A DNA stretch of 64,000 nt, from the IMG/VR virus record IMGVR_UViG_3300011258_001374, positions 1-64,000 of that record. One strand, written 5' to 3'. This DNA is from a virus. Below, in pieces: positions 2,159 to 24,005 of the stretch (position 1 is its first letter; each line of letters starts with the position of its first letter). The notes under the pieces were generated by a model, which saw only the letters and a list, made by a program, of their open reading frames with translations, was not told the DNA's origin and searched no databases. A program made the translations under genes and the position numbers.

Positions 2159-2567
2159 GTACAACTATCGAAGCACGGTGATGAAGGCCCTGAAGCGGTT
2201 GCGGTCCGATCCCCAGGCGGTTGAGAACTCAGCGAACCCCGGGTGCCCGGACGTCGAATGCCTGCGCGGCTGGATCGAGCTGAAGTACGCGTCTGCTTGG
2301 CCCAAGCAGACGGACACTGTCGTTCGGATCGATCACTATACACAGCAGCAGCGGAATTTCCTTCGGAGACGTTGGAACGCGGGAGGAGGTGCGTGGCTTT
2401 TACTACGGGTTGGATCACGAGGCAAGGTTGAAAACCTGCTCTTTGACGGTTTAACGGCGAATGAGTTTGTCGGTCGCGTTCCGCGCGCTACGCTCGTGGA
2501 CCTCGCAATAATGCATTCATATGGAAAGATCGCCAGCGCCGATCTAGACGAGATGCTCAGACGATGA
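2151..2567 (+). CDS. VRR-NUC domain nuclease (PD-(D/E)XK)
   Basis: GCPDVECLRGWIELK matches the VRR-NUC G.PD...E.K signature; 138 aa; coupled to flanking genes. Confidence 0.7.
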   Translation: MGEYNYRSTVMKALKRLRSDPQAVENSANPGCPDVECLRGWIELKYASAWPKQTDTVVRIDHYTQQQRNFLRRRWNAGGGAWLLLRVGSRGKVENLLFDGLTANEFVGRVPRATLVDLAIMHSYGKIASADLDEMLRR

Positions 2568-4915
2568 CCGATACCCCAGCAGCAATTGAATTCTTGAAGC
2601 AGTGGGAGCCTGAAGGTCCCTGGGTTCTGACTTCAATCGCTATCGACCGAAAGGCGATCACAACGGCCACCTTCGACCTAACAACGCTAGATGAGTGCGT
2701 TGAGTGGATCGATCTATACAACGGTGTTCGCAACATCTACTTCCATGTCAACCCGACCGTCGGCCCGATGGACAAGAAGGCCCAGCGGGAGGACATGGCA
2801 GAGATGAAGTGGTTACACGTCGACGTTGATCCGCGTGACGGCGCCGACCTCCAGGACGAGCGTGACCGCGCACTGGCGCAGCTGATGAATCCCCCAGGCA
2901 ACGTCCCGAAGCCCACGGTGATCGTGTTCTCCGGCGGCGGCTACCAGGGATTCTGGCGACTCCAGGATCCGTTCCAGATCGACGGTGACATCGGACTCGC
3001 GGAAACGGCCAAGCGGTGGAACTTGCAGCTTGAGCTGCTGTTCGGCGCGGACAATTGCCACAACGTTGACCGACTGATGCGGCTCGCTGGGACAACCAAC
3101 ATCCCCGACGCCAAAAAGAAAAAGAAGGGCCGAAGCGAAGAACTGGCCAAGGTAATTCTGTTCGATCACTCTCGCATCTACCCCATCTCTCAGTTCACTC
3201 CGGCCGCACCGACACAAGGCGGCGAGATGTTTGGCAGCTCCACACAAGAGGTGGAGATCAGCGGAAACATTCCTCGCGTCGCCACGATGGAAGAGCTGGA
3301 TGAGTGGGACGTGCCCGACCGCGTCAAAGTCATCATCGTGCAAGGCCGTCATCCAGACGAGGGACCCAAGGACGACGACTCGCGATCGAGCTGGCTGTTC
3401 GACTGCGTTTGTAATCTGGTTCGCTGCAACGTGCCTGACGAGGTTGTCTTCTCCCTGATCACGGATCCAGACTTCGGCATCAGTGAGTCGGTGCTCGACA
3501 AGGGTGCCAACGTTGAGAGCTACGCGAAGCGACAGATTGGGAAGGCAAAAGAATTCGCCATCGATCCGAAGCTCGCCGAGATGAACGATCGCTATGCGGT
3601 CATCGAAAACTTCGGGGGCAAGTGCCGCGTTGTTGAGGAGCAGCTCGATCCAATCCTGAAACGCTCACGCCTCACCTCCCTGAGCTTTGGCGATTTCAAG
3701 AATGCCCACATGCACAAGAGCGTTCCGGTCGGTGAGGACAAGGACGGAAACCCGAAGTTCATGCCCCTGGGCGACTGGTGGACGAAACATCGGGAGCGCC
3801 GACAGTTCAAGCGAGTCGTCTTCGTTCCGAACCAGGAGGTTCCCGACGCATACAACCTCTGGCGCGGATTCGCCTGCGAAGCTCGCCCGGGCAAGTGGGA
3901 CAAGCTCGAAGCTCACATCCGGGACAACATTTGTCGGGGTAACGATGGCTTGTTCAAGTACCTGATGGGCTGGATGGCTCGAATGATTCAGTTCCCAGGT
4001 GAGCCTGGACAGACAGCGATCGTTATGCGTGGCGAGCAGGGAACGGGAAAGTCGTTTCTCGCGAAGCAGCTGGGTGCCCTGCTGGGCCGACACTATATGC
4101 AGGTAGGTAACTCCAGCCAGCTGGTCGGCAACTTCAACGCCCATCTGCGCGACTGCGTCTTCTTGTTCGCGGACGAAGCTTTCTACGCTGGGGACAAGAA
4201 GCACGAAGGTGTGCTCAAGATGATCGTGACTGAAGACACGATGTCGATCGAGGCCAAGGGAGTTGATGTCGAGGCTGCGACTAACTGTCTGCATCTCATG
4301 ATGGCATCGAATCATGAATGGGTAGTGCCTGCGCACAGCCGAAGTGAACGCCGATTTCTAGTTCTCGATGTGAGCGAGAGCCACATGCAGGACACGACCT
4401 ACTTCGGAGCGATCCAAGATCAGATGAATAACGGTGGCCGAGAGGGATTTCTCTATTCCCTCCTGGACTACGATCTGTCAGATTTCGACGTCCGCACAGT
4501 GCCCAGGACGAAGGCGCTGGAAGAGCAGCAGTTCCAGGGCTACGACGTTCAGGAAGAGTGGTGGTACACGAAGCTATGCGACGCGGTCATGCTCAACGAA
4601 GACCCGAGCAACGTGCCGTGGCCTAACGTAGTCCGAACCGATGAACTGTACAATGACTACCTCGAATACACCAAGCGAAACAGCTTTCGAAATCCCAAGA
4701 ATAAGGTTCATTTCGGTCGCTTCATCACCAAGATCGCCAACCCCAAGAAAGGGCAGTCCTCTATCTCCACCGGTCGCCGCAAGGTCTATCAGTTTCCCGA
4801 CGTCGAAGAGTGTCGCCGCCGCTGGATCGAGATCTACAAGCAAGGTGAGTGGGTTGGTGAAGAGCCGGAAGAAACGATCGAGACGCCCGTCCTGGACCAA
4901 GAAGAGATCTTCTGA
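2564..4915 (+). CDS. bifunctional primase-polymerase (AEP) / SF3 helicase, D5/P4 primase-helicase type
   Basis: AEP motifs WLHVDVDP and SGGGYQGFW; C-terminal Walker A GEQGTGKSF and Walker B VFLFADEA; 783 aa. Confidence 0.85.
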   Translation: MTDTPAAIEFLKQWEPEGPWVLTSIAIDRKAITTATFDLTTLDECVEWIDLYNGVRNIYFHVNPTVGPMDKKAQREDMAEMKWLHVDVDPRDGADLQDERDRALAQLMNPPGNVPKPTVIVFSGGGYQGFWRLQDPFQIDGDIGLAETAKRWNLQLELLFGADNCHNVDRLMRLAGTTNIPDAKKKKKGRSEELAKVILFDHSRIYPISQFTPAAPTQGGEMFGSSTQEVEISGNIPRVATMEELDEWDVPDRVKVIIVQGRHPDEGPKDDDSRSSWLFDCVCNLVRCNVPDEVVFSLITDPDFGISESVLDKGANVESYAKRQIGKAKEFAIDPKLAEMNDRYAVIENFGGKCRVVEEQLDPILKRSRLTSLSFGDFKNAHMHKSVPVGEDKDGNPKFMPLGDWWTKHRERRQFKRVVFVPNQEVPDAYNLWRGFACEARPGKWDKLEAHIRDNICRGNDGLFKYLMGWMARMIQFPGEPGQTAIVMRGEQGTGKSFLAKQLGALLGRHYMQVGNSSQLVGNFNAHLRDCVFLFADEAFYAGDKKHEGVLKMIVTEDTMSIEAKGVDVEAATNCLHLMMASNHEWVVPAHSRSERRFLVLDVSESHMQDTTYFGAIQDQMNNGGREGFLYSLLDYDLSDFDVRTVPRTKALEEQQFQGYDVQEEWWYTKLCDAVMLNEDPSNVPWPNVVRTDELYNDYLEYTKRNSFRNPKNKVHFGRFITKIANPKKGQSSISTGRRKVYQFPDVEECRRRWIEIYKQGEWVGEEPEETIETPVLDQEEIF

Positions 4916-5148
4916 TGCGTGCCGCGCTGACATTTTTGTTGGCAATTTCTACGCTAAGCTGTGTAGCCCCGCACAAGCCGTGCGTCACGGAGCTGCAGCT
5001 GGGCGTTTATGGCTCTGAGTCAGAAGGAACCAGCAGGGGAAGTGCAAATAGGCAGGGCCAGCGAGATACGTGGGATAACGATGACACCACGGTCGGCGGT
5101 TCAGCTACACTCATCATAGACTTAACAGGATCTTGCGAAGGAGAATAG
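4915..5148 (+). CDS. small secreted protein (N-terminal signal peptide)
   Basis: MRAALTFLLAISTLSCVAP signal-like N-terminus; ATG overlaps primase stop (TGATG); 3' end carries the AAGGAG RBS of the next gene. Confidence 0.4.
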   Translation: MRAALTFLLAISTLSCVAPHKPCVTELQLGVYGSESEGTSRGSANRQGQRDTWDNDDTTVGGSATLIIDLTGSCEGE

Positions 5149-5150
5149 AT

Positions 5151-5675
5151 ATGCCGCACTCAGAAGCTCACCCGGAGCCATGGCCCGACACGCCCTGGGT
5201 TATTCGAAAGAGGAACGTACGCCTCAAGCACGAAGCGCCGGAGACGATCGATTTCTATCGGTGTCAGTACCCCAACGGACTTGAGGTCACTGCTATGCGG
5301 CAAGGTGCTCTGTACGGACTCAAGCGAGGGCAGGGCGCGACGTTCAGTCTGGAAACCGACGCAGAAGGGATCCACCACGGTGTGCTCCACATGCACCTCG
5401 TGCCTGGGCAGCCCGCTGACGGAGAGGTCAGCTGCCAAGCGGGAAAGTACGAGAACAATCGCGAGTTGGCGTACAACCGTGACGCCTATCGCATGTGGAA
5501 GTTCCAGAACCCAGGGCAAGAGCCCGAGCTGAACGTTCTGTGGAGCGAATGGAGCAACTCACAGCCGCTCGGTGTCGTCGAACCTGACCCCGTGCCGGAA
5601 CCCGGCCTCCTTCTGATGCTTGCAATCGGAATTCTGGGCCTAACGGTGGCAGGATGGCGTCGAAAGACTCCGTAA
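5151..5675 (+). CDS. PEP-CTERM-tailed protein without an N-terminal signal peptide
   Basis: C-terminus PVPEPGLLLMLAIGILGLTVAGWRRKTP (PEP motif, hydrophobic span, basic tail); AAGGAG RBS 8 nt upstream of ATG 5151 (track started it at TTG 5133). Confidence 0.5.
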   Translation: MPHSEAHPEPWPDTPWVIRKRNVRLKHEAPETIDFYRCQYPNGLEVTAMRQGALYGLKRGQGATFSLETDAEGIHHGVLHMHLVPGQPADGEVSCQAGKYENNRELAYNRDAYRMWKFQNPGQEPELNVLWSEWSNSQPLGVVEPDPVPEPGLLLMLAIGILGLTVAGWRRKTP

Positions 5676-5774
5676 AGGCGATCAAGCGAAAGGCTCGAGA
5701 GATCTTCAGGGATATGCCCAAGGGAGGTTTTCACAGCAAGAGAGGCTACCGTCGCGACGGTCGAGCCGTGGACA

Positions 5775-6071
5775 GTGAAATCGATGAAGGACTACACGAG
5801 CGTGAGCGAGAGAACCTGGAGCGAGGAGAGCCAGATCTCATTGAAAAAAGGCGAAGCCGCGATCGTGACGAGACCTGACGGTTCGATCACTCTTCACATT
5901 CCAGGCAGCATGGACGAGGTCTCCCTGGGCCACACGCACGCCATGCTGATGTCGCTTGCTCTGTCGGGCACTCCACTGGCGGAACCGATCTACCGAGCCC
6001 TGTGCAAGGCGCATGGCCTGTCGTTGGATCTGGCAGGCGCTGGTGAGAACGAAGGCGACCTACCTAACTAG
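5775..6071 (+). CDS. hypothetical protein
   Basis: 98 aa ORF with high GC3; weak RBS; overlaps an alternative 74 aa ORF at 5654-5878. Confidence 0.3.
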   Translation: MKSMKDYTSVSERTWSEESQISLKKGEAAIVTRPDGSITLHIPGSMDEVSLGHTHAMLMSLALSGTPLAEPIYRALCKAHGLSLDLAGAGENEGDLPN

Positions 6072-6079
6072 CAGTGGGG

Positions 6080-6155
6080 TGGTGGACAAGCCGGGATTCG
6101 AACCCGGAAGACAAGCCGTGCAAAGGCCGCCGTTCCCAGTTACTTACACTCGCCC
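6080..6155 (-). tRNA. tRNA-Ala(TGC)-like gene with non-canonical D-arm, encoded CCA
   Basis: Reverse complement gives acceptor GGGCGAG/CTTGTCC with a G3:U70 wobble, anticodon loop TTTGCAC (TGC), canonical T-arm CCGGG-TTCGAAT-CCCGG and CCA end; D-stem pairs poorly. Confidence 0.55.
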
Positions 6156-6156
6156 G

Positions 6157-6232
6157 TGGTAGGCCCCCTCGGAATCGAACCGAGAACCCCAGGATTAAGA
6201 ATCCCGTGCTCTACCGATTGAGCTAAGGGCCT
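6157..6232 (-). tRNA. tRNA-Lys(CTT), canonical 76 nt with encoded CCA
   Basis: Reverse complement AGGCCCTTAGCTCAATCGGTAGAGCACGGGATTCTTAATCCTGGGGTTCTCGGTTCGATTCCGAGGGGGCCTACCA folds as a standard cloverleaf, anticodon CTT. Confidence 0.8.
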
Positions 6233-6322
6233 AAACGTCCGGCGACCACCCCGCCGTCCAACCTCCGCCTCAGCGGATCGCTCGCTTACGCTAAAGCTGC
6301 AACGTGATGGTCGCCTTTTTCG

Positions 6323-6472
6323 TTACCGCTTCCCGCTCTTGCGAGAGGGAAAGTGACCGAATGCAAAACTCGGTCCGGTGTAGAACCACGCTTCGAAACC
6401 GACCGGCTTCTTCACGTAGCCCTTGAGGGCCGACGCGTTGTAGCGCCACTTGCCCTTGTTGGGTTCAGACAT
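6323..6472 (-). CDS. small hypothetical protein, 49 aa
   Basis: AAGGAG RBS 7 nt upstream of ATG (MSEPNKGKWRYNASALKGYVKKPVGFEAWFYTGPSFAFGHFPSRKSGKR); below the ORF-track size cutoff. Confidence 0.35.
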   Translation of the reverse strand: MSEPNKGKWRYNASALKGYVKKPVGFEAWFYTGPSFAFGHFPSRKSGKR

Positions 6473-6620
6473 AACAACTCCTTGGCGCCATCAGGCGCTC
6501 TATTGGATTGTCATGACGTCTCCTTCACCTTTGAGAATGCTCCTCTCGATCAGCCGGCGGTATTGTACGGAGCGTTCACCCCGCCGATCTGCAGTGCGCG
6601 TTGCAACTGAGCCCGATAGG

Positions 6621-6947
6621 CTAGCTTGGTTGTGGCGCCATCGCCAGCCCGTAATTCTGACCCCGTTTGACGACTCGCCAGCGTGTGTTGCTGGGCCGAC
6701 CATTCGTGATCGTGTCGAAAATCATCAGCTCGGACAGCTCGCCCAGGAACATGGGCCAGTCACGTCCGTCTCGGCTCGTCCAGATGAAGACGGCAGAGCT
6801 TCTGCCACGCGAAAACGTTTTGAGATCAAGAGTGAGCTGCAGGGGCTCGTCCGCGTCCCACCACTCGATGTCATCCAGCCACGGTTTGTTCTCGGGAAAG
6901 GACTGAAGCTCGTTGTTTCGGAAGGGCGCCTTTCGGTCCCAAGCCAC
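6621..6947 (-). CDS. hypothetical Trp-rich protein, possible GTG start coupled to the ligase stop
   Basis: Protein-like frame (WDRKAPFRNNELQSFPENKPWLDDIEWWDADEP...) begins at GTG overlapping the ligase TAG (TAGTG); an alternative ATG at 6752 gives only 43 aa. Confidence 0.3.
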   Translation of the reverse strand: MAWDRKAPFRNNELQSFPENKPWLDDIEWWDADEPLQLTLDLKTFSRGRSSAVFIWTSRDGRDWPMFLGELSELMIFDTITNGRPSNTRWRVVKRGQNYGLAMAPQPS

Positions 6948-7954
6948 TAGAACAGATCCGCCGCAAACTTCTTGGTCTGCACGATCGAGAACTGTCGGAG
7001 CTTCTTGAAGTCGATCGTCGGGTCCTTGAACTTCTTCACAAAGCTCGCGGCCTCCTCGTCGACCAGCTCGTGGAAGACCGTCGAGAGCAGCCGGGGGATC
7101 AATCGGCCGCGGACTGATTCCAGCCACATGAGCGCCTCAGGTGTCTGATCGTAGAGGAGCCCCTCGCCGAGAGACCAACGTTCGTCATTCTCCTCGATCA
7201 ACATCGCGAACGTGACCTTCGCGCGCGTCTTCTCGACGAGCGCCTGCGTCACGAACTCCTCGGCGATTTCCTTCTCCACCTGCCGGGAGCCCTCCCGCTC
7301 TGGGCTTCCCATCTCGCGTCGGTTCTCTTCCTTGAAGTCGTTCCGAACGCTCTTCCCCCAGACCGTCTTGCCGACGTGGTTGACGAAGTCGTAGTTCTTG
7401 ACGACCACCCCTTCCCCGACGCCACTGTTCTCGGCGATAAGGTAGGTGTTAGTCGTGTCCCGGACGTGGATGATGTCTTCCTCGGTCGGGTTGTTGATGA
7501 TCTGCAGCGGCTCAAGAACCTTCGCTCCAGCCTCACGTAGGCGATCAGCCCAGGTGTCGTAGTGCAGATACCGACCGGTGTCGGGGCAGCGCACGTCGAA
7601 AATGTAGAACTCGCGCCACGCCTCAGGTCGATAGGTCTTCAGCGAATGGGGCACCAGCCACTCGCCGTAGAAGATCGGGAACTTGACTCCGTCGTACGTC
7701 TCCTGGATGTAGTCCAGTTCCGATGCCGACCATCGCATCTCCATGGCAGAGCGAAAGCCGTGGTTGTCCGCCGCGTCGAGCTGCGACAGATCACGACGTC
7801 GACTTCCACAGCAGACGCCTCCGTTCTCGCGATCGCTCCAGATCGATGCGTTCGCGCCATCGAGCTTCGGGAAGACATAGCACTTGCCCAGGAGTAGGCC
7901 GTTCACATTCGGGTGACCGAGTCGTTCGACGTGGGTGTATTTGACGAAACCCAT
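6947..7954 (-). CDS. ATP-dependent RNA ligase, Rnl2 family
   Basis: Nucleotidyltransferase motif I FPKLDGANASIW (KxDGxN as in T4 Rnl2), motif III FYIFDV, motif IV EGVVVK, motif V VGKTVWGKSV; 335 aa, the size of T4 Rnl2. Confidence 0.8.
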   Translation of the reverse strand: MGFVKYTHVERLGHPNVNGLLLGKCYVFPKLDGANASIWSDRENGGVCCGSRRRDLSQLDAADNHGFRSAMEMRWSASELDYIQETYDGVKFPIFYGEWLVPHSLKTYRPEAWREFYIFDVRCPDTGRYLHYDTWADRLREAGAKVLEPLQIINNPTEEDIIHVRDTTNTYLIAENSGVGEGVVVKNYDFVNHVGKTVWGKSVRNDFKEENRREMGSPEREGSRQVEKEIAEEFVTQALVEKTRAKVTFAMLIEENDERWSLGEGLLYDQTPEALMWLESVRGRLIPRLLSTVFHELVDEEAASFVKKFKDPTIDFKKLRQFSIVQTKKFAADLF

Positions 7955-8238: not shown

Positions 8239-9457
8239 TGAATTTGTTGTGGAACTCGACGCACTTCTCCTGCACGAGCTTCGGGCGCTTCACGACCATG
8301 AACTCAGCCGTTGCTCCTTCCATGACTTCGCCAGCGATGGCGTCGCTTAGCATTAGGTACACAGGAAAGGCGGCGTCCGACAGAGCGGAGAGCGCCTGAA
8401 TCTGCTCCTTCATCTTTGCGATCCGTTTCTTGTACCGGCGGTTCGCATTCTGCGACTGCGTGAGCGAGTCCTTCATCTTGGCTCGAGCCCCCTGTTCCCG
8501 CTTGACCGCGCTGCGCAGACGGTAGTTGGAATGCCACAGGCCATCGACCACCTGTGGGAGCTGCTTCTCGCCGTACGCGGGCACTGCTGCTGGAGGTCGT
8601 TCTTCAATCACCTCCAGACCTTGCTTGGCGTACCAGTCTCGGACGTCCTTCTGGTCGCTGTTCGGACCGAGCGGATCGTCGATGATGATCATGTCAGGAC
8701 CGTATCCGCCAAACGCCTTTCCCACTCCGCCCGAGAACTCCTGGGCAGTCGGCCCTAACTTCGGCCATGTGCCTAGGGCGTTTTCACCGCTCATCTCTGG
8801 GCGCGGCTTGATGGTGGTTCGAGAGAGCGAGCCTACGCTATGTGACACGACCTCCTCGTTGCCGGACAGGTGAACGTGTACGGGCTCACCCGCTGCGGCG
8901 TCAGTTGCCGCCGTCATCTTGACCTCACCGGAGACCTCGATCTTCGCCGGATCCTCAGCGTTCATGCCCTGCACCAGTCGCTGAGCTGCTTCGTCGGTCA
9001 GGCCCAGGGGCTCCGGGTCTTCCACCCCGAAGTCGTTCTCCTCACCGAAGTTGGGGAACTCCCGCATCTCTTGTGCCATTTCCGCGGCGCGCTCACCGCT
9101 CATCCCATACATTTTGCCGAGTCGAACGCGCTTGGTTTCGTCCTGCAGGGCGATGTTCTCCTGCAATGCCTTGTCGTATGCCTTCTCGGTCGAGTCGAGC
9201 TGCTCAAGCGCAACGGCCAGCCGCATTTCCAACGTCGCGAAGCGCGCGCCTAGCTGCTGGACGAAGTCGTCGCCTGTGCCGACTGGGCTCTTCATCAGCT
9301 CCTTGAAGTCGAAGGGCTTGTACGGCATCTCCAGTTCGCGCCGTAGCTTGGCTGCCTTTTCGATATCACTCATCAACGGATCGAGCTGTGATCGATCGAC
9401 CTCAACTTTCAGCTGCAGTTCTTCCACGGTCCTCTTCGGAGGCTCTGTCATCGGCAT
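8207..9457 (-). CDS. hypothetical coiled-coil protein
   Basis: About 416 aa; likely start MPMTEPP overlapping the upstream stop (TGATG); acidic, helical N-half, Gly-rich FSGGVGKAFGGYGPDMIIIDDP segment; no recognised family. Confidence 0.45.
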   Translation of the reverse strand: MPMTEPPKRTVEELQLKVEVDRSQLDPLMSDIEKAAKLRRELEMPYKPFDFKELMKSPVGTGDDFVQQLGARFATLEMRLAVALEQLDSTEKAYDKALQENIALQDETKRVRLGKMYGMSGERAAEMAQEMREFPNFGEENDFGVEDPEPLGLTDEAAQRLVQGMNAEDPAKIEVSGEVKMTAATDAAAGEPVHVHLSGNEEVVSHSVGSLSRTTIKPRPEMSGENALGTWPKLGPTAQEFSGGVGKAFGGYGPDMIIIDDPLGPNSDQKDVRDWYAKQGLEVIEERPPAAVPAYGEKQLPQVVDGLWHSNYRLRSAVKREQGARAKMKDSLTQSQNANRRYKKRIAKMKEQIQALSALSDAAFPVYLMLSDAIAGEVMEGATAEFMVVKRPKLVQEKCVEFHNKFNEAAEVFRNE

Positions 9458-9900
9458 CAGCTTTTTCCTTTCGCCGGCATAACCAGCATCGGTATTCCGA
9501 GAGCGCAGGCCTTCTTCATGCAATCAAGCGTGCCGCTTCGGGTTGTCCTCCCGTCCCAAATCGAAAGTACGAACTCGGGCTCCCACTCTTTCAGCATCTG
9601 GCTGTTCCGACGAGGTCCAGCACCCAGGCCGTGTGCTTTCCAGTCAGCCATGAACGTTCTGTGGGTGATGCGGTCGGAGTCAGTTCGATCCACCCACTCG
9701 CGAACCATCTTGTCCGCGCCGTCAGCACCACCCTCAGCGATGTGAAGTGTGGCGTTAGGTTGATCAACGTGGATCTCGGTGCGATTCATGGCCATCTGCC
9801 ACATCACTCGCTCCATGAGCTTGTCGAAGTTGCCAGTGCTGCAAGAAAAACTTCGGCTGCCAGTCACCACCAAACGAAATGGGTTGTTAGGCTCGTTCAT
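9457..9900 (-). CDS. SLOG-family / DUF2493-like (LOG/DprA-like Rossmann) protein
   Basis: LVVTGSRSF and EGGADGADK motifs typical of phage DUF2493/SLOG proteins; 147 aa. Confidence 0.5.
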   Translation of the reverse strand: MNEPNNPFRLVVTGSRSFSCSTGNFDKLMERVMWQMAMNRTEIHVDQPNATLHIAEGGADGADKMVREWVDRTDSDRITHRTFMADWKAHGLGAGPRRNSQMLKEWEPEFVLSIWDGRTTRSGTLDCMKKACALGIPMLVMPAKGKS

Positions 9901-13474: not shown

Positions 13475-14026
13475 TTAGTTTGACGATAGGCCTAACATGT
13501 CGTTCAGCTTCTGGAGGGGAAGAGCTGGCAGCATTGGCGTTGTGCCTAGTCCCTGGGTGAACTGTTCGATCTGCGGCCACTCCTTGCGCAGCTTTTTGAT
13601 CGTCGTGAAGTGACGCAACTGAGCGCGAACCTGATTGCGGACGTCGGTCATTTCAACTCGGATCAACTCCTTGTCTCGTTCAAGCGAGTGAAACTGCTTG
13701 GTCAGAGGGCTCGTCGCGGGGAAAGCAAGATTGCCTTCTCCCCATCGCATGTGCTCGGACAAAAAGCGACGAGGCTTTTCATCCTGGAACTGAGCGTGGC
13801 TGTTCCTGCCACCAAAGGTCAGGCGAATTTCTGACGATTCCTCAAGCCACCCCTTGGGCAGACCGTTCATCTTTTCTTGAATTATGCCGTTGTAGGTAGC
13901 GCTGTACACAGCCTCGGCCAGTTCGAACTCACGCCTGGTGTGTTCGTCGAGCGTCGCCTGAAAGCGGTGCGCGATGAGACGTTTGATGATCTCATCTCGC
14001 ATGGTCTGGTTGAGTCGGTCTGACAT
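13475..14026 (-). CDS. hypothetical protein
   Basis: 183 aa ORF, coding-like composition; no motif recognised. Confidence 0.4.
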   Translation of the reverse strand: MSDRLNQTMRDEIIKRLIAHRFQATLDEHTRREFELAEAVYSATYNGIIQEKMNGLPKGWLEESSEIRLTFGGRNSHAQFQDEKPRRFLSEHMRWGEGNLAFPATSPLTKQFHSLERDKELIRVEMTDVRNQVRAQLRHFTTIKKLRKEWPQIEQFTQGLGTTPMLPALPLQKLNDMLGLSSN

Positions 14027-17394: not shown

Positions 17395-17686
17395 GCTTAG
17401 CTGCTCGGGCCTTGCGGCCTGCTTGCTGCTTCTTGGTTCCGTCCGTGCGTGTGATACGCCGAAGTTTGTCGTCTCGCTCTTCCCGATCCACCAGCCGCTC
17501 CAAGCGAGTGGCCATCAAGACCGCGTATCGTCGTCGAGTGGCTCGGTTGAGCACGATCGTCTCGAATAGCGCCGTGCCATTCTTATCGACGTTTCCCGTT
17601 TTAACTGTAGTGGTTCCGAACGGACTTCCCGAACTAACCTCGTTGTACGTGGGCTGTGGCCACGCGACGTCCTTCATCTGCGTCAT
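17345..17686 (-). CDS. hypothetical basic protein
   Basis: 113 aa; basic C-terminus (RKARAAKRVAYLARAAE). Confidence 0.3.
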   Translation of the reverse strand: MTQMKDVAWPQPTYNEVSSGSPFGTTTVKTGNVDKNGTALFETIVLNRATRRRYAVLMATRLERLVDREERDDKLRRITRTDGTKKQQAGRKARAAKRVAYLARAAEINKEKN

Positions 17687-18531
17687 ACTGCTACCTCTCC
17701 TTTCAACCCAGGATGTGGGTCGTATGACCTCACTTCGAGGTGCTCTGGGCGGAAGTCAAAAATCGATTCGACCGAGTCGTCGATGCCTACCCGGGGTGCC
17801 TGTCTTGGGTGTCGCGTGAGCTGGATGCGGCCCTGCTCCATGTGGTTCTCGTAGATGTGCAAATCGCCCAAGGAGAAACACAGGCGGCGCGGTCGATACC
17901 CCGTGACGTGAGCGAACATGCGGAGGAGGAACGCGTAGCTGGCGATGTTGAACGGCATCCCAAGAAAGATGTCGATCGATCGCATGTTGACTAACATGTT
18001 CAGGTCGCCGTTCTGCGTCTGGAGCTGGAACGCGTAGTGGCAGGGCATGAGAGCCATCTTTGGAAGGTCGGCAACATTCCAGGCCGAGACCAGGATGCGT
18101 CGGCTGTTCGGATCCGTGTTGAGCAGCTCGACCGCCTGCTGGATCTGATCGATCGACTTGTGGCTCCAGTGTCCATCGTAGCCTCCGGGGCCATCGAAGT
18201 GCTCGCTCTTGACGTGCCACTTCCGCCACTGTTTCCCGTAGACGGGACCCAGATTGCCGTTTTCAGCGGCCCACTCGTCCCAGATCGTGCAGCCCAGGTC
18301 GTTCAGGTCGTTGTTATTGGTCGAGCCAGATAGAAACCAGATCAGCTCAGCGATGATCGACTTCGTGTGGACACGCTTGGTCGTGAGCAGGGGGAAGTCC
18401 TCGACCACATCCGGGCATTCCCAGAATCGTCCGAAGACCTTGCGCGTGGGTGTGGCGGTGCGGTTGTCGCTCTTCACGCCATTGAGCATAACATCGCGGA
18501 GTAGGTAGAGGTAGTTTTCTTCACCGGTCAT
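17683..18531 (-). CDS. thyA: thymidylate synthase ThyA
   Basis: Near-canonical ThyA blocks: TIWDEWA, GPVYGKQWR, SRRILVSAWNV, MALMPCHYAFQ (catalytic Cys), PFNIASYA, GDLHIYENH, YDPHPG; start at MTGEENY overlaps the dCMP deaminase stop (ATGA). Confidence 0.9.
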   Translation of the reverse strand: MTGEENYLYLLRDVMLNGVKSDNRTATPTRKVFGRFWECPDVVEDFPLLTTKRVHTKSIIAELIWFLSGSTNNNDLNDLGCTIWDEWAAENGNLGPVYGKQWRKWHVKSEHFDGPGGYDGHWSHKSIDQIQQAVELLNTDPNSRRILVSAWNVADLPKMALMPCHYAFQLQTQNGDLNMLVNMRSIDIFLGMPFNIASYAFLLRMFAHVTGYRPRRLCFSLGDLHIYENHMEQGRIQLTRHPRQAPRVGIDDSVESIFDFRPEHLEVRSYDPHPGLKGEVAV

Positions 18532-19226
18532 TTCGGAAACCCTTTGATCCCGACCGCTTCCACTCCGCCTTCTTTGAAGATCGTGAGTGATTTCTCGAGA
18601 TTTTTGACCCAATCTTCGCGCTCGAAAAATGGGCCGTCGTTGAAGTATACGAACTTTGAGATTCCGCTCTGAACAACGGCTCGCGCGCAGTCGCAGCACG
18701 CCGCGTTGGGCGCGTACATTGTCGAACCCCGCAGTGCCACGCCCTGGGCCGCCGCGTTGTAGATCGCATTGCGCTCACCGTGTTCGTACCAGAGATATTT
18801 CTCAGGGCGTTCGTGCCGCTCTTGCGGAGCCTCATCCACTCCTCTGGGCAGTCCGTTATAGCCCAGGGAGAGCAGCACCTGATGGTCGCCGACTATCACG
18901 ACGCCGACTTGGGACGAATCGTCTTTCGACCATTCAGAGATCGTCATCGCGAGCGCCATCCACCGACGAGTCCAACTGACCTTTGGCGCCATATCGCGAC
19001 TGCGAAGAAGCTGAGATCCATGCTCTGAGCAGAACTGCTCGTTCTTGTTCACGCATAACCAGCCAGCTTCTTGACACCCGCGCTCCAAGTAGTGGGGATC
19101 GCGAGCGACGTCTATGTCGATGACTTCGGAGCAACCTCCCGGCCAATCGCAACGGGCGATCGAGCGATCTTGAAGGTCGTTTCTGATCAGAGTCATACCT
19201 CGATTTCTTCCTTTTCGAGGAACCAT
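18528..19226 (-). CDS. dCMP deaminase (cytidine/deoxycytidylate deaminase zinc motif)
   Basis: HGERNAI (H-x-E) and PNAACCDCARAV (PCxxC) zinc-binding motifs; about 225 aa. Confidence 0.8.
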   Translation of the reverse strand: MVPRKGRNRGMTLIRNDLQDRSIARCDWPGGCSEVIDIDVARDPHYLERGCQEAGWLCVNKNEQFCSEHGSQLLRSRDMAPKVSWTRRWMALAMTISEWSKDDSSQVGVVIVGDHQVLLSLGYNGLPRGVDEAPQERHERPEKYLWYEHGERNAIYNAAAQGVALRGSTMYAPNAACCDCARAVVQSGISKFVYFNDGPFFEREDWVKNLEKSLTIFKEGGVEAVGIKGFPK

Positions 19227-22803: not shown

Positions 22804-23025
22804 TTATCCGATTTTTTCTTTGACCTGCCGAAGCGCCTGAGCAGGCAGCTGACCGGCATTTGTTGGGCTACCTGCCATAGGCAACTTCGTTGTCTTTCCA
22901 TGGCGTGAGACGATTAGCTTCGGGTGCTTTGCTCCGCTATGTCGTACCTCTACCGAATAGCCTGCCCGCTTGAGCGCCTTTACGATCGCCCGCTGATGCT
23001 TCTGCAGCCGGGGTGCCGCGCTCAT
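22804..23025 (-). CDS. YcfA/HicA-like small protein (mRNA-interferase fold candidate)
   Basis: AIVKALKRAGYSVEVRHSGAKHPKLIVSRHGKTTKLP parallels the HicA pattern (K..GW..VR.KGSH...HP...V..H); start overlaps the methyltransferase stop by 4 nt. Confidence 0.4.
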   Translation of the reverse strand: MSAAPRLQKHQRAIVKALKRAGYSVEVRHSGAKHPKLIVSRHGKTTKLPMAGSPTNAGQLPAQALRQVKEKIG

Positions 23026-24005
23026 GCAGCCATCACGATCTGCTCGACGATGCCCTTGGCCATCTGCACATCAATTGCATTCCCGATCATCTTCCCCGCG
23101 AGGCCCTTCGCCTTCGGGAGGACATACGAATCCGGGAAGCTCATCGATCGCGCCATTTCACGGGCGCTCAGCGTCCGCATCCGGTCGCCGTCGATGATGT
23201 ACCATTGACCGATCGACTTCGTGGTTGACGTTGGGAAAAAACCGTCAAGTGGCCTGCCTGACGACTCTGAGACGTTCGCCCAGAGGCAGCGCTCGCCGGC
23301 CTCGTTCTGGGCCTTTTTAACCCGGATACGCATCCGGGCCGACTTGGAATCGATCGGCTTCCAGTTGTGGTGCGGGGCCGCGTCGTCCTCAAGACATTCG
23401 GCGATCGTTCGGGCCGCATGGCCATACGTCGGAGAGAGGACTGGGGCCGCGTGGCCCATGCGTGCGGTGATGATCATTCTGTCGCGCTCCTGCGCGCCGC
23501 CGTACGCGGTCGCCCGGATCACCTGGGTGTGGGTCTGGTACCCGAAGGCCTTGAGCATGCCGTGATAGGCCTCGAACGCGTCCCATCGCATCATGTCCAC
23601 CACGTTCTCGATCGCGATGAACTCGGGCCTAAGGGTGTCGGCGGCGGATAACACAGCCATAGCCGTGTTGCGGTCTCGCTGCGCCTTTTCTTGGGCCGCC
23701 TGGGCCGATGGCCTAACGTTGCCGCCGGTGCCCCTTCGCGCGGGTTGTCCGCACTGAGAATATCCCTGGCACGCTGGACTCGCCAGAAGTATCCGGGTAG
23801 CCGGGACTTGCGTCCAGTCTGCCTCCTTGAGATCTTGTCGGACGTGGGCCGTGTGGGGGTGGTTGGCCGCGTGGCAGTCAACGGCCTCCTGCCAATGGTT
23901 CGCAGCCCAGAGGACGGGAACGCCTGCCATGTTCGCGCCGGTACTGAATCCGCCGGCACCTGCAAAGAGATCGATTGCGTCAAAGTTGCTCATTGTTTGC
24001 TCCAT
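23022..24005 (-). CDS. DNA (cytosine-5)-methyltransferase
   Basis: Motif I DLFAGAGGFS, motif IV ASPACQGYS (PCQ), motif VI IENVVDMM (ENV), motif VIII AQERDRMII, motif X MIGNAIDV; 327 aa. Confidence 0.9.
   Translation of the reverse strand: MEQTMSNFDAIDLFAGAGGFSTGANMAGVPVLWAANHWQEAVDCHAANHPHTAHVRQDLKEADWTQVPATRILLASPACQGYSQCGQPARRGTGGNVRPSAQAAQEKAQRDRNTAMAVLSAADTLRPEFIAIENVVDMMRWDAFEAYHGMLKAFGYQTHTQVIRATAYGGAQERDRMIITARMGHAAPVLSPTYGHAARTIAECLEDDAAPHHNWKPIDSKSARMRIRVKKAQNEAGERCLWANVSESSGRPLDGFFPTSTTKSIGQWYIIDGDRMRTLSAREMARSMSFPDSYVLPKAKGLAGKMIGNAIDVQMAKGIVEQIVMAA

What the first reader, a model, noticed from the sequence alone, without database searches (positions are those of the whole stretch)
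6080..6232. Tandem phage tRNAs: canonical tRNA-Lys(CTT) plus a tRNA-Ala(TGC)-like gene with a degenerate D-arm
Two back-to-back minus-strand tRNA genes, 1 nt apart and both with encoded CCA, sit between the replication operon and the RNA ligase. tRNA-Lys folds perfectly. The second keeps the Ala identity pair G3:U70, a TGC anticodon loop and a perfect T-arm, but its D-stem barely pairs, so it may be a non-canonical or decoy tRNA. tRNA-Lys is the classic target of anticodon nucleases (PrrC, PARIS AriB), and phage-encoded resistant tRNA-Lys copies are a known counter-measure. Together with the Rnl2-type ligase 700 bp away this looks like a tRNA-centred counter-defence module.
Basis: partly seen in the sequence, partly recalled or inferred. 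Interest (0 to 1): 0.6.

Follow-up and report, generated by a model that had tools for sequence, protein, structure and literature searches.

The report
Phage tRNA-Lys plus crippled tRNA-Ala gene
A phage carries one normal lysine tRNA gene and, one base after it, an alanine tRNA gene that has lost one of its four stems; this is an ordinary kind of phage tRNA cargo, and nothing in the sequence shows that it forms an anti-defence unit with the nearby RNA ligase.

Summary
On the minus strand, 6157-6232 is a canonical tRNA-Lys(CUU) (Rfam 63.8 bits; ARAGORN call). It is followed by one base and then, at 6080-6155, a 76-nt tRNA-Ala(UGC)-type gene. Both genes encode CCA.

The second gene keeps:
- a 7/7-paired acceptor stem with G3:U70 and A73;
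- the loop UUUGCAC;
- a 5/5-paired T-arm.

Its D-stem has only 1 of 4 pairs. ARAGORN default and Rfam at its threshold both miss it.

It clearly descends from a family of canonical phage tRNA-Ala genes that share the acceptor stem GGGCGAG/CUUGUCC. The nearest member is 81% identical. A model built from that family scores it 58.8 bits, against 78-91 for members.

tRNA-Lys is conserved in a related phage. All nine differences between the two copies are either compensatory or in loops. That relative has a normal tRNA-Asn in the second slot, and no other copy of the Ala-like gene was found.

The ligase does have the T4 Rnl2 fold. However, only 4 of 80 loci carrying this ligase family have a tRNA nearby, and no Pnkp was found. 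The classic nuclease target is tRNA-Lys(UUU), not CUU.

Most likely this is ordinary phage tRNA cargo: a working tRNA-Lys for AAG, the phage's dominant lysine codon, plus a damaged or marginal tRNA-Ala. Interest is low.

The parts
6157..6232 (-). tRNA-Lys(CUU) gene, 76 nt including the encoded CCA. Canonical cloverleaf with an A1:U72 pair and anticodon loop UUCUUAA.
   Evidence: ARAGORN. Rfam RF00005 63.8 bits. The minimum-energy fold is the cloverleaf, z = -2.86. An ortholog lies at L022:5407-5482; its 9 differences are 3 fully compensated stem pairs plus 3 loop positions.
6156..6156 (-). Single-base spacer (C) between the CCA of tRNA-Lys and G1 of the next gene. It implies a dicistronic precursor cut by RNase P at the 5' end of the second element (inferred).
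   Evidence: Sequence.
6080..6155 (-). tRNA-Ala(UGC)-derived gene, 76 nt including CCA, with a disrupted D stem. Acceptor GGGCGAG/CUUGUCC with G3:U70 and A73; anticodon loop UUUGCAC; T arm CCGGG-UUCGAAU-CCCGG; D region UGUAAGUAACUGGGAACGG.
   Evidence: Pair table. Missed by ARAGORN default and by Rfam at gathering score. Best Rfam clan match is tmRNA at 19.1 bits, ends only. ARAGORN in mitochondrial mode calls Ala(tgc) at these coordinates. Family model R1 gives 58.8 bits against 78-91 for members. Nearest relative is L113:650-721 at 81% identity.
6947..7954 (-). Rnl2-fold RNA ligase, 335 aa, 715 nt upstream on the same strand. It is a neighbour only; no functional link to the tRNAs was shown.
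   Evidence: Pfam PF09414, 1.7e-15. PHROG 548 'RNA ligase'. AlphaFold2 model with pLDDT 87.8. Foldseek top hits are full-length T4 Rnl2, 2hvr/2hvq. Only 4 of 80 homologous loci have a tRNA nearby.

Best explanation
These are two phage tRNA genes at the 3' end of the minus-strand early operon, where it meets the converging replication operon. They are probably transcribed together. RNase P would separate them at the one-base spacer, and because CCA is encoded no CCA addition is needed.

tRNA-Lys(CUU) is a working tRNA kept by selection in this phage lineage. It reads AAG, which makes up 85% of the phage's lysine codons. It therefore keeps lysine decoding supplied during infection. Whether that matters because demand is high or because host tRNA-Lys is depleted or cleaved cannot be decided from sequence.

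The second gene descends from a widespread phage tRNA-Ala(UGC) family that shares the acceptor stem GGGCGAG/CUUGUCC. A localised change has destroyed its D stem. It has probably kept everything needed to be processed and charged with alanine: the acceptor/T-arm helix, G3:U70, A73 and CCA. It has lost the core that gives a tRNA its L shape. Most likely it is a crippled or marginal tRNA, in effect a young pseudogene, rather than a purpose-built decoy.

Shown: the anatomy, the family descent, the conservation of tRNA-Lys and the absence of a ligase link. Inferred: co-transcription, processing, charging and poor performance on the ribosome.
For: - tRNA-Lys is canonical.
- The tRNA-Lys ortholog in L022/L023 (ligase 70% identical) differs at 9 of 76 positions. 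Six of these form 3 fully compensated pairs (7:66, 27:43, 28:42) and three lie in loops.
- AAG is 371 of 437 lysine codons in 26 genes.
- The acceptor pattern of the Ala-like gene retrieves 35 distinct sequences from viral and metagenome contigs. Nearly all are canonical tRNA-Ala in phage tRNA clusters with 3-4 bp D stems.
- The window copy shares the D-loop motif UAAC(U)GGGAAC and the loop UGCAC with the L113/L132/L156/L111 subgroup. Its best identity is 81%.
- It loses 20-30 bits against the family model, at the D stem and at 27:43.
- Broken pairs are concentrated in the D stem, p = 0.012.
- The second slot is not conserved. It holds a canonical tRNA-Asn(GUU) in L022, and nothing or other cargo in L001, L002, L004, L025 and L027.
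- tRNA-like genes that the detector misses are common in phage tRNA clusters: about 26 of about 318 distinct acceptor/T-arm candidates.
Against: - If the gene were decaying neutrally, damage should be spread along it. Instead 16 of the 17 pairs outside the D stem are intact, as are the T loop, the anticodon loop and CCA. This fits a very recent single event, but it also fits selection on a D-stem-less RNA.
- One subfamily of phage tRNA-Ala (L005, L117, L119) persists with a displaced, weak D stem that covaries. Weak D arms therefore need not be fatal.
- No diverged ortholog of the Ala-like gene was found, so its conservation could not be measured.
- A phage at 58% GC would normally be expected to supplement A/U-ending codons. 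A CUU tRNA is therefore not an obvious codon-compensation choice. The host's codon usage is unknown.
Confidence: 0.6

Rival explanations
1. Counter-defence module. The phage tRNA-Lys would be a nuclease-resistant replacement for host tRNA-Lys cut by an anticodon nuclease such as PrrC, RloC or PARIS AriB. The Rnl2-type ligase would reseal cut tRNAs, and the Ala-like RNA would act as a decoy.
For: - Phage tRNAs that replace cleaved host tRNAs are established. T5 tRNA-Lys resists PARIS AriB through changes in the anticodon stem-loop (PMC11464382), and anticodon-loop changes are reported in phage tRNAs generally (PMC10264068).
- The ligase has the Rnl2 fold and is on the same strand, 715 nt upstream.
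- Four of the 8 nearest relatives have some tRNA within 1.5 kb downstream of the ligase.
- A relative pairs Lys(CUU) with Asn(GUU).
- Window and L022 tRNA-Lys differ in the anticodon stem and at position 32.
- A CUU tRNA is not an obvious codon-bias supplement.
Against: - Only 4 of 80 loci with this ligase family have a tRNA within 3 kb.
- The ligase's recurring neighbour is a YAcAr/SLOG protein, not a tRNA.
- No Pnkp or other end-healing enzyme was detected in 40 ORFs (PHROGs 11, 68; NCBIfam 52).
- T4's tRNA-Lys repair is known to use Rnl1 and Pnkp, and the biological role of Rnl2 is unsettled (own knowledge).
- The known targets are tRNA-Lys(UUU), not CUU.
- The Ala-like anticodon loop is ordinary.
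- The host tRNA is unknown, so no resistance substitutions can be identified.
Confidence: 0.2
2. The Ala-like gene is a functional non-canonical RNA. It would be a D-stem-less tRNA-like molecule that AlaRS can still charge, because AlaRS needs only the G3:U70 acceptor helix. It could serve as a slow or error-prone decoder, as an alanine donor outside the ribosome, as a sponge for a tRNA-binding host factor, or simply as an RNase P 'punctuation' signal that frees the 3' end of tRNA-Lys.
For: - All elements needed for RNase P, AlaRS and EF-Tu recognition are intact, and damage is confined to the D stem (p = 0.012).
- The anticodon stem can extend to 7 bp with a bulge when the D stem is absent (constrained fold). 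D-armless mitochondrial tRNAs do the same (own knowledge).
- A weak-D-arm tRNA-Ala subfamily is conserved, with covariation.
- Other RNAs with an Ala-type acceptor and a foreign body exist in phage contigs: L134 (84 nt, z = -2.8) and L016/L122.
- The Rfam tmRNA model matches the two ends.
Against: - Only one sequence is known, and no ortholog was found.
- Thermodynamics favours a rod-like misfold (-28.5 kcal/mol) over the D-less cloverleaf (-21 to -23.9), with P(T arm) about 4e-4.
- That alternative fold is no better than chance, since 39% of D-region shuffles fold as well. There is therefore no sign of a designed structure.
- The examples with an intact acceptor and T arm were found with a pattern that required those features, which is ascertainment bias.
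- There is no tmRNA body or tag.
Confidence: 0.15
3. The Ala-like gene is an attachment-site remnant, meaning the 3' part of a host tRNA-Ala carried as attP. Alternatively the tRNAs serve tRNA-dependent lysogeny by complementing a host tRNA gene that integration disrupts.
For: The 3' two-thirds of the Ala-like gene are canonical and the 5' third is not, as in tRNA gene fragments at integration sites. tRNA-dependent lysogeny is documented for tRNA-Lys in mycobacteriophages (PMC10865867).
Against: - The 5' acceptor strand is present and pairs 7/7, so this is not a 3' fragment.
- No integrase was found among 40 ORFs scanned.
- The 23-nt T-arm/acceptor sequence occurs in no bacterial species representative. 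The only hits are two archaeal (Woesearchaeota) tRNA-Ala genes with other anticodons.
- The gene sits between replication and nucleotide-metabolism operons of a phage that encodes its own DNA polymerase and primase.
Confidence: 0.02

Closest known systems
Phage-encoded tRNA genes, whether single genes or small clusters, in tailed phages. Proposed roles are codon supply and replacement of host tRNAs depleted by defence nucleases (PMC10264068, PMC11555353, PMC11464382).
   Same: A canonical tRNA gene with encoded CCA at an operon end, conserved with compensatory changes in a related phage, and decoding the phage's main lysine codon.
   Different: The anticodon is CUU, whereas the documented nuclease-evasion cases involve tRNA-Lys(UUU). 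The host and any nuclease are unknown, so no resistance substitutions can be named.
Phage tRNA-Ala(UGC) family with acceptor stem GGGCGAG/CUUGUCC, for example L113:650-721, L012:4440-4515 and L014:2386-2459 in viral and metagenome tRNA clusters.
   Same: Identical acceptor stem with G3:U70 and G5:U68, A73, the UGC anticodon, the UUCGAAU-type T loop and the same total length. The D-loop motif UAAC-GGGAAC and the loop UGCAC are shared with one subgroup. Up to 81% identity.
   Different: Members have a 3-4 bp D stem and score 78-91 bits with the family model. The window copy has 1 of 4 pairs in register (2 after a one-base shift) and scores 58.8 bits.
tRNA pseudogenes and non-canonical tRNA-like genes in phage tRNA clusters.
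   Same: The acceptor/T-arm helix is retained but the gene is missed by standard detectors. About 8% of such candidates in the phage loci examined here are uncalled.
   Different: Here the damage is restricted to one stem, and all identity and processing elements are intact.
tRNA-like domain of tmRNA (Rfam RF00023).
   Same: G3:U70 acceptor, T arm, ACCA end and no real D stem. It is the best-scoring Rfam clan member at 19.1 bits.
   Different: The match covers the two ends only and falls below the gathering score of 47. The window element keeps a normal anticodon stem-loop instead of the long tmRNA body and has no tag reading frame. ARAGORN finds no tmRNA.
T4 tRNA-Lys repair pathway (Pnkp plus Rnl1, countering PrrC).
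   Same: A phage RNA ligase gene lies close to a tRNA-Lys gene.
   Different: The ligase has the Rnl2 fold, not Rnl1. No Pnkp was detected. The ligase family is rarely next to tRNAs. T4 repairs the host tRNA rather than supplying its own.

Membership tests
Canonical elongator tRNA (Rfam RF00005 / ARAGORN), applied to 6157-6232 (Lys) | Cloverleaf with four stems, a 7-nt anticodon loop containing U33, a T loop, and a score above the family threshold | tested here: met
   63.8 bits against a threshold of 29. Called by ARAGORN. The minimum-energy fold is the cloverleaf.
Canonical elongator tRNA (Rfam RF00005 / ARAGORN), applied to 6080-6155 (Ala-like) | Score at or above the family threshold, or a call by the default detector | tested here: not met
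   No Rfam match at gathering score. In permissive mode the tRNA match is outscored by a 19.1-bit tmRNA match. ARAGORN default gives no call.
Canonical elongator tRNA, applied to 6080-6155 | D stem of 3-4 base pairs | tested here: not met
   U10:G25 pairs; A11.C24, A12.A23 and G13.A22 do not. The covariance alignment finds 2 pairs after a one-base shift.
Canonical elongator tRNA, applied to 6080-6155 | Acceptor stem of 7 bp, T arm of 5 bp with a UUCRANY loop, 7-nt anticodon loop with U33, and standard length | tested here: met
   Acceptor 7/7, T stem 5/5, loop UUUGCAC, 73 nt plus CCA.
Alanine identity (AlaRS substrate) | G3:U70 wobble pair in the acceptor stem, with A73 and G1:C72/G2:C71 as supporting elements | tested here: met
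   All are present in the sequence. Actual charging cannot be tested here.
Phage tRNA-Ala(UGC) family with GGGCGAG/CUUGUCC acceptor | Match to the family covariance model at member-level score | tested here: inconclusive
   58.8 bits, E about 1e-15, establishes homology. This is 20-30 bits below the members, which score 78-91, though those are training sequences and so their scores are inflated.
tmRNA | tRNA-like ends together with pseudoknotted body and tag-peptide reading frame; score at or above 47 bits | tested here: not met
   19.1 bits, ends only, with 38 nt in place of 328 model positions. ARAGORN's tmRNA search was negative.
T4 Rnl2-type RNA ligase (neighbouring gene 6947-7954) | N-terminal nucleotidyltransferase domain with the motif I lysine (KxDG), plus a C-terminal helical domain | tested here: met
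   K30-L-D32-G33 is invariant across 31 homologues. The AlphaFold2 model (pLDDT 87.8) has full-length T4 Rnl2 2hvr/2hvq as its top hits. The sequence-only search of solved structures gives only weak hits to the Naegleria ligase.
T4-type tRNA repair system (Pnkp + RNA ligase) | A polynucleotide kinase/phosphatase encoded with the ligase | tested here: not met
   No kinase or phosphatase family was found among 40 ORFs of the window. Small ORFs were not exhaustively scanned.
Conserved ligase-tRNA gene module | Ligase and tRNA occurring together across homologous loci | tested here: not met
   4 of 80 viral loci have a tRNA within 3 kb. Among the near relatives, 4 of 8 do, with differing tRNAs.
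Nuclease-resistant replacement tRNA (T5 tRNA-Lys / PARIS type) | Anticodon stem-loop substitutions relative to the host tRNA at the nuclease recognition or cleavage site, and rescue of infection | not testable with these tools
   The host is unknown.
attP / tRNA gene fragment | Only the 3' part of a host tRNA is present, it is identical to a host gene, and an integrase lies nearby | tested here: not met
   The 5' acceptor strand is present. No bacterial genome holds the 23-nt 3' sequence. No integrase was found.

The most novel reading that the evidence does not exclude
The Ala-like gene is not decaying. It would be maintained as a D-stem-less tRNA-like RNA that AlaRS can charge, one example of a recurrent phage class of alanine-acceptor 'minihelix' RNAs with non-tRNA bodies (compare L134 and L016/L122). 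Its role would lie outside normal decoding, for example as a decoy for a tRNA-targeting host factor, as an alanine donor, or as a processing signal.
Probability: 0.1. Interest if true: 0.6.

Novelty: new member of a known kind. Interest (0 to 1): 0.2.

Why it matters
As it stands, this adds one more phage tRNA pair to a very large known set. It also shows that default tRNA detectors miss a share of phage tRNA-like genes: about 8% of the candidates in the phage loci examined here.

It would matter more if the D-stem-less alanine-type RNA proved to be expressed, charged and selected. That would point to a role for tRNA mimics in phages beyond decoding. It would also matter more if the conserved tRNA-Lys(CUU) proved to protect against a nuclease that targets the CUU isoacceptor, which would broaden the known range of tRNA-based immune evasion.

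Tried and rejected
1. tmRNA-like reading. The Rfam tmRNA match (19.1 bits) covers only the acceptor, T arm and ACCA, and ARAGORN finds no tmRNA. Rejected.

2. Designed alternative fold. The minimum-energy structure is a rod in which the D region pairs with the variable region and the 5' T stem. Shuffling the D region gives an equal or lower energy in 39% of cases and loses the T arm in 41%. The overall z-score is only -1.2. This is not beyond chance.

3. att-site fragment or host capture. The single genome-wide scan for the T-arm/acceptor 23-mer hit only two archaeal tRNA-Ala genes. Rejected.

4. Searches for orthologs of the Ala-like gene:
- exact 28-mer in viral contigs, no hits;
- D-loop-anchored degenerate pattern in viral contigs, no hits;
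- tRNA-Lys-anchored patterns in viral and metagenome contigs, no hits.
The close relatives L001 and L002 carry other cargo at this site. Conservation of the Ala-like gene therefore stays unmeasured.

5. No close phage genome in the INPHARED collection by megablast. The distant search matched only generic tRNA similarity for the Lys gene.

6. Repeats of the D-region sequence elsewhere in the window, as a possible recombination donor: none.

7. Promoter and terminator scan of 5600-7100: nothing above background.

8. Ligase-tRNA association across 80 loci: negative.

9. Enrichment of Ala identity among uncalled tRNA-likes. This is confounded because the loci were selected with an Ala acceptor pattern, so no claim is made.

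10. PADLOC scan of 10 neighbouring proteins: no hits.

Full report
**Setting**

The window has 58% G+C and is phage DNA. On the plus strand it encodes:
- a family A DNA polymerase (18-1925);
- a primase (2564-4915);
- a small protein with a PEP-CTERM motif (5133-5675);
- a 98-aa ORF ending at 6071.

On the minus strand, converging on these, is a long operon that includes:
- an RNA ligase (6947-7954);
- a Band_7 protein;
- an Nmad5 protein;
- thymidylate synthase;
- an exonuclease;
- a C5 DNA methylase.

From about 30 kb onward come terminase, a Mu-type portal, Mu F-like protein, capsid and tape-measure genes.

The contig is Logan SRR5242440_3338, 70.7 kb. The same sequence, 100% identical over 2.3 kb, occurs in ENA ERZ505368. 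This makes a one-off assembly error unlikely, although the independence of the two assemblies was not verified. No integrase was found among 40 ORFs scanned.

**The observation**

On the minus strand, 6232..6157 is a textbook tRNA-Lys(CUU) with encoded CCA:
- ARAGORN calls it.
- Rfam gives 63.8 bits against a threshold of 29.
- Its minimum-energy fold is the cloverleaf, z = -2.86.

After one base (C6156) comes a 76-nt element, 6155..6080, also ending in ACCA. A pair-by-pair check gives:
- acceptor stem 7/7, with G3:U70 and G5:U68;
- T stem 5/5, with loop UUCGAAU;
- anticodon stem 4/5 (C27.U43), with loop UUUGCAC;
- D stem 1/4, the single pair being a U:G wobble.

Standard tools do not accept the second gene:
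- ARAGORN default gives no call.
- Rfam at gathering score gives no match.
- In permissive mode the best match in the tRNA clan is tmRNA at 19.1 bits, aligned only over the two ends.
- ARAGORN's mitochondrial mode, which tolerates weak D arms, calls tRNA-Ala(tgc) at exactly these coordinates.

**What the second gene is**

A pattern was built that fixes the acceptor strands and the T loop and leaves the interior free. It retrieved 12 viral and 47 metagenome loci, 35 distinct sequences in all. Nearly all are canonical tRNA-Ala, mostly UGC, sitting in phage tRNA clusters, with D stems of 3-4 bp.

The window element is thus a member by descent of a widespread phage tRNA-Ala family that shares the stem GGGCGAG/CUUGUCC. 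Its nearest relative is L113:650-721 at 81% identity. It shares the D-loop motif UAAC(U)GGGAAC and the loop UGCAC with the L113/L132/L156/L111 subgroup, whose D stems pair.

A covariance model was built from 22 canonical members.
- It scores the window element at 58.8 bits, E about 1e-15.
- Members score 78-91 bits. Those are training sequences, so their scores are somewhat inflated.
- The loss lies at the D stem, which has two pairs after a one-base shift, and at 27:43.

Broken pairs are concentrated in the D stem: 3 of 4 there against 1 of 17 elsewhere, p = 0.012.

**Is the odd D region purposeful?**

ViennaRNA prefers a rod-like fold at -28.5 kcal/mol, in which the D region pairs with the variable region and the 5' strand of the T stem. 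The D-less cloverleaf comes to -21 to -23.9 kcal/mol, and the T arm has probability about 4e-4.

This complementarity is not special, however. Among shuffles of the D region alone, 39% fold as well or better and 41% also lose the T arm. The whole-molecule z-score is -1.2. I therefore do not read the alternative fold as designed.

It does suggest that the unmodified transcript is prone to misfolding. The 18-nt D-region sequence has no second copy in the window.

**Comparative evidence**

Near relatives were found through the primase and the ligase.

L022/L023, whose ligase is 70% identical, carry an orthologous tRNA-Lys(CUU) at the same converging junction. The two copies differ at nine positions:
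- six form three fully compensated pairs (7:66 U:G to G:C; 27:43 C:G to G:C; 28:42 G:U to C:G);
- three lie in loops, at positions 17, 32 and 60.

This is good evidence that tRNA-Lys is functional and under selection in this lineage.

The second slot is not conserved:
- L022 has a canonical tRNA-Asn(GUU) there.
- L001, L002 and L004 have unrelated DNA or ORFs.
- L024, L025 and L027 have no tRNA at all.
- L004 and L019 have other, unusual tRNA genes directly after the ligase stop codon.

No other copy of the Ala-like gene was found by any scan. Whether its D-less state is maintained over time therefore cannot be judged.

**The 'module' idea**

The ligase is indeed Rnl2-like.
- The motif I lysine (KLDG) is invariant in 31 homologues.
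- The AlphaFold2 model has pLDDT 87.8.
- Its best matches are full-length T4 Rnl2 structures, 2hvr at E = 4e-10.
- Sequence-profile search of solved structures alone gives only weak hits to the Naegleria nick-sealing ligase.

The link to tRNAs is weak, though.
- Of 80 viral loci carrying this ligase family, only 4 have any tRNA within 3 kb.
- The ligase's recurring upstream neighbour is a YAcAr/SLOG-domain protein.
- No Pnkp or other end-healing enzyme was detected.
- A scan of 10 neighbouring proteins against the anti-phage defence-system library (PADLOC) found nothing.

The documented cases concern tRNA-Lys(UUU). PrrC cleavage is repaired by T4 enzymes (PMC10264068). [quoted passage not shown]

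Here the anticodon is CUU, and the host tRNA is unknown. No resistance substitution can be named.

AAG makes up 85% of the phage's lysine codons, so simple supply is a sufficient explanation. I note, though, that a G/C-ending codon is not the usual target of codon compensation. Replacement of a depleted host tRNA therefore remains a live possibility.

**Rivals considered**

- An att-site fragment is excluded. The 5' acceptor strand is present, and no bacterial species representative carries the 3' 23-mer; the only hits are two archaeal tRNA-Ala genes.
- tRNA-dependent lysogeny (PMC10865867) needs an integrase, and none was seen.
- A tmRNA-like role has no support beyond the generic alanine-type ends.
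- A functional D-stem-less RNA cannot be excluded. All elements for RNase P, AlaRS and EF-Tu recognition are intact.
  - A subfamily of phage tRNA-Ala (L005/L007, L117, L119) persists with a displaced 3-bp D stem that covaries (CCA/UGG against CGC/GCG).
  - A few alanine-acceptor RNAs with foreign bodies exist, namely L134 and L016/L122.
  - Those examples were found with a pattern that required an intact acceptor and T loop, so they cannot be used as evidence of enrichment.
  - More generally, about 8% of acceptor/T-arm candidates in the phage loci held here are not called by ARAGORN. Irregular tRNA-like genes are thus a common feature of phage tRNA cargo.

**Verdict**

The locus holds an ordinary, conserved phage tRNA-Lys(CUU) and a structurally crippled member of a known phage tRNA-Ala family. 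The Rnl2-like ligase is a neighbour, not a demonstrated partner.

This is a new member of a known kind, of low interest. There is a small chance, about 10%, that the Ala-like RNA is a maintained tRNA mimic, which would be more interesting.

Noticed in passing
L004:8994-9073; L019:5463-5557 (also L020 and L021): Relatives of this phage carry unusual tRNA genes immediately after the ligase stop codon. One is 80 nt, with a G3:U70-type acceptor (UGGGGCG/CGCCUCA), a 13-nt anticodon loop AUCUGCAGUAUAC and T loop UUGGAGU; ARAGORN calls it 'Gln ctg' and Rfam gives 47.9 bits. The other is 95 nt, and ARAGORN calls it 'Pro agg'.
   Followed up: partly
window 9457-9900 (-), with L022:1591-2043, L024:4635-4997 and L027:3018-3449: A YAcAr/SLOG-domain protein (Pfam PF10686; PHROG 289 'GTP-binding domain') is the recurring upstream neighbour of the Rnl2-like ligase in this phage group. 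In two relatives it is directly adjacent. In the window and in L022, an uncharacterised protein of 350-440 aa sits between the two.
   Followed up: no
window 5133-5675 (+); L004:9110-9840: Phage ORFs ending in a PEP-CTERM sorting motif (Pfam PF07589, 2.6e-05) lie at or near the variable junction. This hints at a host with an exosortase system.
   Followed up: no
window 13475-14026 (-), 17683-18699 (-), 23022-24005 (-): An Nmad5 'nucleotide modification associated' protein, a thymidylate-synthase homologue with a roughly 60-aa N-terminal extension, and a C5 cytosine methylase share one operon. This may be a DNA base-modification set.
   Followed up: no
L005:82-155 (same as L007), L117:659-732, L119:2266-2339: A subfamily of phage tRNA-Ala(UGC) has the conserved segment CAUGUAC after the acceptor stem and a displaced 3-bp D stem (positions 14-16 with 21-23). 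That stem covaries between lineages (CCA/UGG against CGC/GCG). ARAGORN mis-registers these genes or misses them.
   Followed up: partly
L134:1322-1405; L016:1676-1754 (same as L122:6341-6419): These RNAs have the alanine-type acceptor GGGCGAG/CUUGUCC and a normal T arm, but a foreign interior. One is 84 nt with a 9-bp hairpin and a 24-nt loop (z = -2.8). The other is 79 nt, in a 157-kb phage that also has a canonical tRNA-Ala. ARAGORN calls neither.
   Followed up: partly
L006:1973-2039; L009:6679-6746; L113:2417-2484: Short (67-68 nt) tRNA-like genes with a CUCCAAAA anticodon loop (Trp, CCA) and a reduced D region recur in three unrelated phage tRNA clusters. ARAGORN default misses them.
   Followed up: no
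L111:4148-4303; L156:65-426: In phage tRNA clusters that contain the closest canonical tRNA-Ala relatives, a tRNA-Lys(UUU) lies just upstream of tRNA-Ala: 5 nt away in L111 and 217 nt away in L156. This echoes the Lys-then-Ala order in the window.
   Followed up: no
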